The notes beneath the pieces were generated by a model. It searched no databases and had not been told where the DNA came from. It saw only the letters and a list, made by a program, of their open reading frames with translations. Shown one piece after another: positions 38,413 to 39,807 of a stretch of DNA of 64,000 nucleotides; the stretch's first letter is position 1, and each line of letters opens with the position of its first letter. Position numbers and translations under genes: made by a program. The stretch comes from Podarcis pityusensis (lineage: Eukaryota), in NCBI GenBank assembly GCA_964106645.2, contig OZ067046.1. One strand, written 5' to 3'.

Positions 38413-38618
38413 AAAAAGACAAAAGCCAGCCCAGCAAGAATGAGGACGCGGGCGCCGAGGATCCGTCCAAGAAGAAGCGGCAGCGGCGGCAGCGGACGCA
38501 CTTCACCAGCCAGCAGCTCCAGGAGCTCGAGGCCACTTTCCAAAGGAACCGCTACCCGGACATGTCGACTCGGGAGGAGATCGCCGTCTGGACCAACCTC
38601 ACCGAGGCCAGAGTCAGG
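38413..38618 (+). CDS. PITX2: PITX2 exon 5 (206 nt): EKDKSQ... and homeodomain residues 1-46 (QRRQRTHF...EARVR)
   Basis: Acceptor tttcctttgcag| at 38412; homeodomain starts at 38481; donor AGG|gtaagg at 38619. The ORF track misses this frame because it has no start codon. Confidence 0.98.
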
Positions 38619-39807
38619 GTAAGGGTAAGGGGAGCCCCGAGCGATCTGCTTTGTTCTGTATGTGTGAATGTTGGGGCCCTTTGGAAGAGGCAGCAGCGAG
38701 GCGAACGAACCTGAGTAGCTTGGCTGGCGCAGGGAAGGCGCCGCTTTCGATTTGGCCTCCTTTTTGAGGCGGGCTTTGGCCCCGGCGCAGCGCCTCTCTG
38801 CTTCCCTCTCAGGCCGAGGCAGGCTGCCATCTTCTCCGAATATGATGGATGGCTGCGCGGCGTGTTCTGAACTGGATGTGTACTTTATGGGAAGCGTCGC
38901 CAAGAAAGCTTCCCGGGGCAGGCTCCGACGTGTGCGCAGCAGCCCGAGATGCGCAACACACGAGGCCTCTGACTCCATCGAAGGCACCCAAAACTTGCCC
39001 TTCCTTGCATTCTTCCTTCCCTCTCCCCACCCCTCGCTCGCCCCAAGCACCCTCAGGTTTCACAACAACGGTGGCTTTCTCCCCACCCACGCCACCCCTT
39101 TCTTGCCAAGATTGATGGATCGATCAGAGTGCTAAAACGCAGCAGAATCGTGCACTCCCGTCTCCGGGAAATCAAAGTGGGGGGAAACCCAGATCACAGC
39201 CCCAAGTCTGTATATATGGAAGAAAGTCCCGTGAAAAGAGAGGCAGTGCGGGTGTCCTCATACAAGCTTCCCTCTGTAGGGATAGTAAGTTGCAACTCTG
39301 TGGGCCTTTAAAACCTTTCGAGTTTGGTATATCCCCCTCCTAGCCGGCTTGCAAAGAGCTTTAGAACTGCAATTGGTGGCTAAATTACTTTAGAGTAATC
39401 CCGTTAGGATTGCTATAAGGTCAGGAGATTTGAGGAGATTAAAGAAAGTCCCAGCGCAATCCATGAAACTAGGAGCGGGGATGTTCAGCGTGTTGCTTAC
39501 TCTCTTTAAAAAACAACAACAAATAAATACATAAAACAGAAAATAAGGCCTCCTCCTTCTCAAATGTAAACCATGTTTGTTTTGGTTAGAAGCGTGAAAG
39601 CCTTCCCAAACAAATGTTACCTGGAATAACGACATTTGTAGTCAACAAGACTTACTCCCAAGAAAGTGTGTAGGGAATCAGAGCGTTTTTAAAAAATAAA
39701 AACCGCCTGGTACCTAAGTTAATGTAGGACCCGTTCATATCTCTGTTTCTTATTCCCAAGTAAATGCCATTAGGACTTGGGTGTAAACAGCGCAAAAATA
39801 ATAATGC

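What the first reader, a model, noticed from the sequence alone, without database searches (positions are those of the whole stretch)
38610..38632. Two identical tandem 5' splice donors that could insert Val-Arg into the homeodomain recognition helix
Seen: exon 5 ends ...GTC AGG|GTAAGG|GTAAGG. The donors at 38619 and 38625 share the identical 9-mer AGG|GTAAGG, so a 9-mer scorer rates them equally. Using the distal donor adds GTA AGG (V,R) in frame between homeodomain residues 46 and 47 ([12 protein letters not shown]), just before K50. Established: tandem donors or acceptors tune DNA binding in WT1 (+/-KTS) and PAX3/7 (Q+/-), and PITX2 is dosage-sensitive. Inference: a lineage-specific PITX2 '+VR' isoform with altered or dominant-negative binding could arise in all three isoforms.
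Basis: partly seen in the sequence, partly recalled or inferred. Interest (0 to 1): 0.72.

Follow-up and report, generated by a model that had tools for sequence, protein, structure and literature searches.

The report
Duplicated splice donor in lizard PITX2
A lizard's PITX2 gene carries a six-letter duplication that gives its homeobox exon two identical splice donors; the first likely dominates, so a protein with two extra residues would likely be a minor by-product, but this is untested on RNA reads.

Summary
In detail: the PITX2 homeobox exon ends at 38618 and is followed by GTAAGG GTAAGG, two donors with the same 9-mer, 6 nt apart and in frame with the acceptor at 42823. The gene is PITX2 of a lacertid lizard. 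The repeat looks like a lineage-restricted slippage duplication: human PITX2, a viper model and both paralogs lack it. No +VR protein was found: 207 of 207 spliced PITX proteins in hand, including four lacertid sequences, use the upstream donor. The ranks of the lacertid RefSeq isoforms fit upstream exon choices alone. Reporter-library data favour the first of two equal donors, and the G-runs point the same way. No RNA or DNA reads were obtained, so donor use and conservation in other lacertids stay open. One correction: because helix 3 reads R-V-R-V, adding VR after residue 46 equals adding RV after residue 43. R44-K50 therefore keep their register, which predicts a weakened domain more than a new specificity. 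Verdict: a candidate delta-6 tandem donor, likely a minor leak. A regulated isoform is possible but unsupported.

The parts
38413..38618 (+). PITX2 homeobox exon (206 nt; 'exon 5', exon 4 in PMC1553432), encodes homeodomain residues 1-46
   Evidence: Translation matches lacertid PITX2 records P0231/P0234; CAG acceptor and GT donor; homeodomain matches PDB 2L7F
38616..38631 (+). Period-6 repeat (AGGGTA x2.7) across the exon-intron boundary, likely a slippage duplication
   Evidence: L015: 16-nt run, 2.7 units
38619..38620 (+). Upstream donor GT, AGG|GTAAGGGT; the site that gives the canonical protein
   Evidence: gives EARVR-VWFKN as in 21 of 21 named squamate spliced PITX2 proteins
38619..38624 (+). 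Six bases (GTA AGG, Val-Arg) that would become exonic if the downstream donor were used
38625..38626 (+). Downstream candidate donor GT, AGG|GTAAGGGG; use not shown
   Evidence: Same 9-mer and same U1 duplex energy, -9.4 kcal/mol; lacks the +8 pair of the upstream site
38629..38632 (+). GGGG run: +11..+14 of the upstream donor, +5..+8 of the downstream donor
38619..42822 (+). Last intron (4204 nt), ending in a pyrimidine tract and CAG
42823..43386 (+). Coding part of the last exon: V47-W48-F49-K50 to the stop codon
15299..15344 (+). Coding part of exon 2 (PITX2a/b start)
   Evidence: peptide match to P0231; donor at 15345
16229..16366 (+). Exon 3 (PITX2b), with a second acceptor at 16268
25611..25664 (+). 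54-nt cassette exon used in lacertid RefSeq isoform X3
35726..35984 (+). Coding part of the PITX2c first exon
   Evidence: ORF translation (start counted from it), compared with P0283/P0286; donor at 35985

Best explanation
The PITX2 homeobox exon of this lizard is followed by two identical donors 6 nt apart, likely made by a slippage duplication in its lineage, and the spliceosome likely uses the upstream one for most transcripts, so a +VR protein would be a minor, unselected leak. Mechanism: U1 can pair equally with either site over -2..+5 (computed), but the sites overlap, so only one U1 fits at a time (inferred). The upstream site is transcribed first and can add a +8 pair. It also has a GGGG run just downstream, where G-runs act as enhancers. 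The downstream site has that GGGG inside its own +5..+8 and would turn another G-run exonic (positions shown, effects inferred from papers). The duplication persists because normal PITX2 dosage is barely touched. Any +VR protein is predicted to keep the R44-K50 register, with a stretched helix 2-3 turn, and so to be a weaker binder rather than one with new specificity.
For: Shown: sequence and frame. 207 of 207 spliced PITX proteins in hand read R-V/I-R-VWF, none with +VR (376 proteins = 207 spliced, 149 intron read-through, 20 partial or other models set aside). 21 of 21 named squamate spliced PITX2 proteins are canonical. The four lacertid sequences seen (P0231, P0234, P0283, P0286) are canonical. 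Their RefSeq labels X1 = 343/344 aa, X3 = 322 and X7 = 271 fall at ranks 1, 3 and 7 of the seven lengths made by upstream exon choices alone; X2 and X4-X6 were not seen, so this is inference. Only the window's own protein of 149 read-through translations begins VRVR; the viper model begins VREAP. Paralog donors are single. The human donor is single (primer table of PMC1553432). The hexamer repeat is common in G000. Papers: the first of two equal donors is preferred (PMC6783452, section 7 read). Minor tandem sites are expressed orders of magnitude below major ones (PMC8055015 passages). Strong minor donors are depleted in ordered regions (PMC2279118, Results part 1). G-runs act as downstream enhancers and exonic silencers (PMC12062376 passage). 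PITX2 is dosage-sensitive at this very donor (PMC1553432).
Against: No junction reads were counted, so the level of downstream use is unknown. The two 9-mers and duplex energies are identical; most minor tandem donors are weaker than their major site, so this one may leak more than most. The reporter study replaced 9-nt sites in human K562 contexts 2-77 nt apart and found exceptions set by wider context; overlapping 6-nt twins are an extrapolation. Whether the annotated lacertids carry the duplication was not seen, and the window's PITX2c N-terminus differs from both records in the His/Gln run. Cluster look-ups listed at most 15 members per cluster, so a +VR record could be hidden. A lone donor-proximal GGGG had only a slight silencing effect (PMC1079783). 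[quoted passage not shown]
Confidence: 0.62

Rival explanations
1. Both donors are used by chance competition for U1, so 10% or more of PITX2 mRNA carries +VR without regulation. This is tolerated because the R-V-R-V repeat keeps the DNA-contact register and the protein is only partly weakened.
For: Identical 9-mers and U1 duplex energies. The insertion is in frame, so no NMD is expected (inference). VR after 46 is the same string as RV after 43, leaving R44-K50 unchanged relative to W48. Tandem donors often insert Val and are only moderately depleted in ordered regions (PMC2279118).
Against: No +VR protein among 207 spliced ones, four of them lacertid. The first donor is preferred at equal strength. 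In humans, partial loss of correct splicing at this donor goes with disease (PMC1553432).
Confidence: 0.2
2. The duplication is an assembly error or a private or segregating allele of this individual, and has no general meaning for the species.
For: The hexamer is slippage-prone. No second sequence with the duplication was seen: only the window's own among 149 read-through translations, and 0 of 8 metagenome pattern hits were homeobox genes.
Against: The surrounding exons translate without error to proteins matching lacertid records. None of the other read-through translations is known to come from a lacertid, so their lack of the duplication says little.
Confidence: 0.12
3. One reading: a regulated, lacertid-specific +VR isoform that tunes PITX2 activity, as WT1 +/-KTS or PAX3/7 Q+/- do.
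For: Two strong equal donors in frame. The exon is shared by all isoforms. G-runs offer a handle for hnRNP H/F regulation (positions). An in-frame splice shift at this junction in human PITX2 changes activity (loss of VWFK abolished transactivation; PMC13191470 passages).
Against: Not conserved in human, viper or the paralogs. It lies in a helix, not a linker. No annotated isoform was found. No paper on it turned up in three searches.
Confidence: 0.06

Closest known systems
Delta-6 tandem donors / TASS (Hiller 2008 PMC2279118; Mironov 2021 PMC8055015)
   Same: Two GT donors 6 nt apart, in frame, a two-residue insertion starting with Val; 142 such human coding introns are counted in PMC2279118.
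   Different: Those were defined by transcript evidence for both sites. Here only the upstream site has protein evidence, and the two 9-mers are exactly identical.
WT1 +/-KTS and PAX3/PAX7 Q+/- (recalled, no call)
   Same: A short in-frame tandem splice choice inside a DNA-binding transcription factor.
   Different: As recalled, those are conserved across vertebrates, abundant, and sit in linkers between subdomains. This one is absent from human, viper and the paralogs, sits in helix 3, and has no evidence of use.
Human PITX2 splice mutations at the same intron (IVS4+5G>C, PMC1553432; c.253-1G>T, PMC13191470)
   Same: Same intron in the recognition helix; they show that splicing here sets PITX2 dose and that an in-frame shift can abolish activity.
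   Different: They are disease alleles that weaken the donor or delete V47-K50. The lizard change adds a second donor and would keep V47-K50.
PITX2 K50 paired-class homeodomain (PDB 2L7F/2LKX)
   Same: The canonical product matches the solved domain over homeodomain residues 1-60.
   Different: No difference in the canonical form; no +VR form was found among the proteins in hand.

Membership tests
PITX2 gene | Homeodomain matching solved PITX2, Lys at position 50 | tested here: met
PITX2 gene | a/b/c exon structure and flanks matching named PITX2 records | tested here: met
   Exons of P0231 and P0234 map exactly on the window; PITX2c N-terminus near-identical to P0283/P0286
Delta-6 tandem donor (TASS) | Two GT sites 6 nt apart, frame kept | tested here: met
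Delta-6 tandem donor (TASS) | Both sites can pair with U1 | tested here: met
   Both pair over -2..+5, -9.4 kcal/mol (U1 5' end recalled)
Delta-6 tandem donor (TASS) | Transcripts use both sites | tested here: inconclusive
   No reads obtained; 0 of 207 spliced proteins show +VR, an indirect test on a capped listing
Regulated functional tandem isoforms (WT1 KTS, PAX3/7 Q type) | Tandem site conserved across distant vertebrates | tested here: not met
   Human donor single; viper model reads VREAP; only the window's own of 149 read-throughs starts VRVR. Conservation within lacertids not seen.
Regulated functional tandem isoforms (WT1 KTS, PAX3/7 Q type) | Insertion in a linker between subdomains (recalled feature) | tested here: not met
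   Falls at homeodomain residues 43-47, in or at the start of helix 3 (helix bounds recalled)
Regulated functional tandem isoforms (WT1 KTS, PAX3/7 Q type) | Both isoforms abundant at a kept or regulated ratio | tested here: inconclusive
   No read counts obtained; annotation shows only the upstream form
Regulated functional tandem isoforms (WT1 KTS, PAX3/7 Q type) | Isoforms differ in DNA binding or function | not testable with these tools
   Needs EMSA or a reporter assay

The most novel reading that the evidence does not exclude
Lacertid lizards gained, by one 6-nt slip, a second equal donor that yields an appreciable +VR form of every PITX2 isoform. The R-V-R-V repeat lets the recognition helix keep its DNA-contact register, so the form still binds or dimerises but activates weakly. 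It would be a built-in attenuator of a dosage-sensitive left-right, eye and pituitary regulator, and a newborn KTS-like switch caught inside a homeodomain helix.
Probability: 0.08. Interest if true: 0.72.

Novelty: new member of a known kind. Interest (0 to 1): 0.27.

Why it matters
If the downstream donor is barely used, this is an ordinary slippage at a donor. It is still a clean natural test of how the spliceosome picks between two overlapping sites with the same 9-mer, answerable with one junction count. If it is used at 10% or more, it would be a naturally tolerated insertion in the most conserved helix of a dosage-sensitive homeodomain. It would then show how a new tandem isoform starts.

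Tried and rejected
Sequencing runs: 24 rows listed; 14 held half or more of the sampled words; no RNA holder listed. No reads or contigs were laid, so the rows say nothing about the duplication or its use, and junction counts stay open. Three protein searches and two cluster look-ups found no +VR protein and no second VRVR read-through; listings were capped (120 of 259, 120 of 500, 9 of 9; at most 15 members per cluster). Metagenome pattern scan: 8 of 8 hits were chance matches without a homeobox. Local RNA folding paired both donors about equally and did not separate them. U1 duplex energies were equal; no MaxEnt or SpliceAI scorer was on hand. My first isoform arithmetic used wrong exon lengths (32 and 19 codons) and was redone with 33 and 18. 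No structure of the +VR form was predicted; the register argument rests on sequence. Paper searches for a PITX2 tandem donor, a recognition-helix splice insertion and a lizard Pitx2 isoform showed nothing on it in the listings (1 of 1, 2 of 2 and 15 of 167 listed). A review on 5' splice-site choice was not held. Earlier findings of this scan: none. A G-quadruplex reading was considered: three close G-tracts, the fourth about 40 nt away, not pursued.

Full report
OBSERVATION. The sequence is as described. The exon ends GAG GCC AGA GTC AGG at 38618, followed by GTAAGG (38619-24), GTAAGG (38625-30) and GGAGCC. The 9-mer AGG|GTAAGG occurs at 38616 and 38622 only. The acceptor is CAG|GTT TGG TTC AAG at 42823. 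I call the sites upstream (38619) and downstream (38625), because 'proximal' and 'distal' are used both ways in papers. The downstream site would add GTA AGG, Val-Arg, in frame.

GENE. The exons of records P0231 (271 aa) and P0234 (322 aa), named PITX2 of Podarcis muralis and Lacerta agilis, map exactly on the window. The homeodomain matches PDB 2L7F, and the intron falls between R46 and V47. The organism is therefore a lacertid lizard (inference from protein identity). Its PITX2c N-terminus differs from both records seen in the His/Gln run, so it need not be one of the annotated species. G000 gave one exact match to the exon and two paralogs, PITX1-like and PITX3-like by their translations. 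Their donors are single: AGG|GTGAGC and CGG|GTAGGC.

ORIGIN. 38616-38631 is a period-6 run of 2.7 units. The same 15-mer has 38 matches in G000, the reversed control has 30, and about 2 are expected from composition. Many of the 30 fetched loci lie in longer runs, often beside TTAGGG-like repeats. So the unit slips easily. The human donor, read from a primer in PMC1553432 (table passage), is single and is also followed by GGAGCC. An intron-retaining viper model reads EARVR-VREAP, against VRVRGAP here, which fits one unit instead of two. Among 149 translations that read through into this intron in PITX genes, only the window's own starts VRVR, though 10 have Val third, that is a GT at +7. A second in-frame GT is thus not rare; a full second 9-mer is. 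None of the others is known to be lacertid, so the age of the duplication within lacertids is open, as is an assembly error or private allele.

IS THE DOWNSTREAM DONOR USED? No reads were obtained, so this is not shown either way. Indirect evidence is against strong use. Of 376 proteins in hand, 207 are spliced at this junction and all are canonical; 149 read through and 20 partial or odd models were set aside. 21 of 21 named squamate spliced PITX2 proteins are canonical, including four lacertid sequences. Lacertid RefSeq labels are X1 = 343/344, X3 = 322 and X7 = 271 aa. Choices among exon 3 long, short or absent, the 54-nt cassette and PITX2c give exactly seven lengths: 343, 335, 322, 317, 304, 289, 271. 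The three labels seen fall at the right ranks, leaving no slot for +VR forms. This is inference: X2 and X4-X6 were not seen, the listings are capped, and those species may lack the duplication.

MECHANISM. Both sites pair with the U1 5' end (recalled) over -2..+5 with the same energy, -9.4 kcal/mol; the upstream one can also pair at +8. They overlap, so one U1 binds at a time (inference). In a library of designed human reporters, the first of two consensus or equal-strength donors was used predominantly, with exceptions set by wider context (PMC6783452, section 7 and passages). Context here also favours the first site. GGGG lies at +11..+14 of the upstream donor but at +5..+8 of the downstream one, and using the downstream one makes a GGG exonic at -8..-6. 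G-runs are described as enhancers downstream of a donor and silencers in exons (PMC12062376 passage). A donor-proximal GGGG alone silenced only slightly (PMC1079783 passages), so this is a weak lever. Minor tandem sites are typically orders of magnitude below major ones (PMC8055015 passages). Strong minor donors are depleted in ordered regions, although donors in general only moderately (PMC2279118 abstract and first part of Results). Partial mis-splicing at this very donor goes with Axenfeld-Rieger features in humans (PMC1553432 passages), so heavy use of a damaging site should be selected against (inference). Against all this, twins with the same 9-mer may leak more than typical minor sites. 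I give 0.62 to a minor leak, 0.20 to appreciable unregulated use, 0.12 to an error or private allele and 0.06 to a regulated isoform.

PROTEIN. Because the helix reads A43-R44-V45-R46-V47, adding VR after 46 gives the same string as adding RV after 43. Counting back from W48, residues 44-60 are unchanged. The two extra residues can go to the start of helix 3 and the helix 2-3 turn, displacing E42/A43 and the T41 cap (helix bounds and cap recalled). The prediction is a destabilised domain with its DNA-contact face kept, rather than new specificity. No model was run. The nearest human case, an in-frame loss of V47-K50 by an acceptor shift, abolished transactivation (PMC13191470 passages), but it removes K50 and so is harsher.

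COMPARISON AND NOVELTY. It has the layout of a delta-6 tandem donor; membership needs evidence that both sites are used, which is missing. It is not a WT1-KTS or PAX-Q type switch on the features tested (conservation, linker position; those systems recalled). No report of it appeared in the listings of three searches; subscription journals and supplements were not seen. Verdict: a real, probably ordinary slippage at a donor of an important gene, cheap to settle with one junction count. Interest 0.27; 0.72 if an appreciable, functional +VR form is shown (probability about 0.08).

Noticed in passing
window 25611-25664 (+): 54-nt in-frame cassette exon between exon 3 and the homeobox exon, with an AAG acceptor and a weak donor (AGC|GTAAGA, -5.3 kcal/mol). 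Its peptide is in 1 of 376 proteins in hand, P0234, a record shared by Podarcis muralis and Lacerta agilis. Possibly a lacertid-specific PITX2 exon.
   Followed up: partly
window 16229 and 16268 (+): Exon 3 has two in-frame acceptors 39 nt apart; the shorter form is used in P0234, and 304-aa mammalian records suggest the same choice there.
   Followed up: partly
window 35985-35992 (+): The PITX2c first-exon donor also starts GTAAGGGT with a GT at +7, but the second site (AGG|GTTCTC) is far from consensus.
   Followed up: partly
window 38410-38418 (+): The homeobox exon acceptor CAG|AAAAAG has a second in-frame AG 6 nt downstream, a possible delta-6 acceptor that would drop two residues.
   Followed up: no
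window 40967-41025: Two FoxH1-type sites in opposite orientation (AATCCACA, TGTGGATT) in the last intron (motif recalled); likely the left-side enhancer known from other vertebrates (recalled).
   Followed up: no
window 35788-35870: Ser- and His-rich low-complexity stretch in the PITX2c N-terminus; the His/Gln run differs between the window and the two lacertid records.
   Followed up: no
window 39808-39847 and 40361-40394: (TA)20 and (GT)17 microsatellites in the last intron.
   Followed up: no
window 6011-6210: 200-base assembly gap (N) upstream of the gene.
   Followed up: no
L026-L032 (G000 C19), L009-L012: AGGGTA runs embedded in TTAGGG-like arrays far from contig ends, likely interstitial telomere-like repeats.
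   Followed up: no
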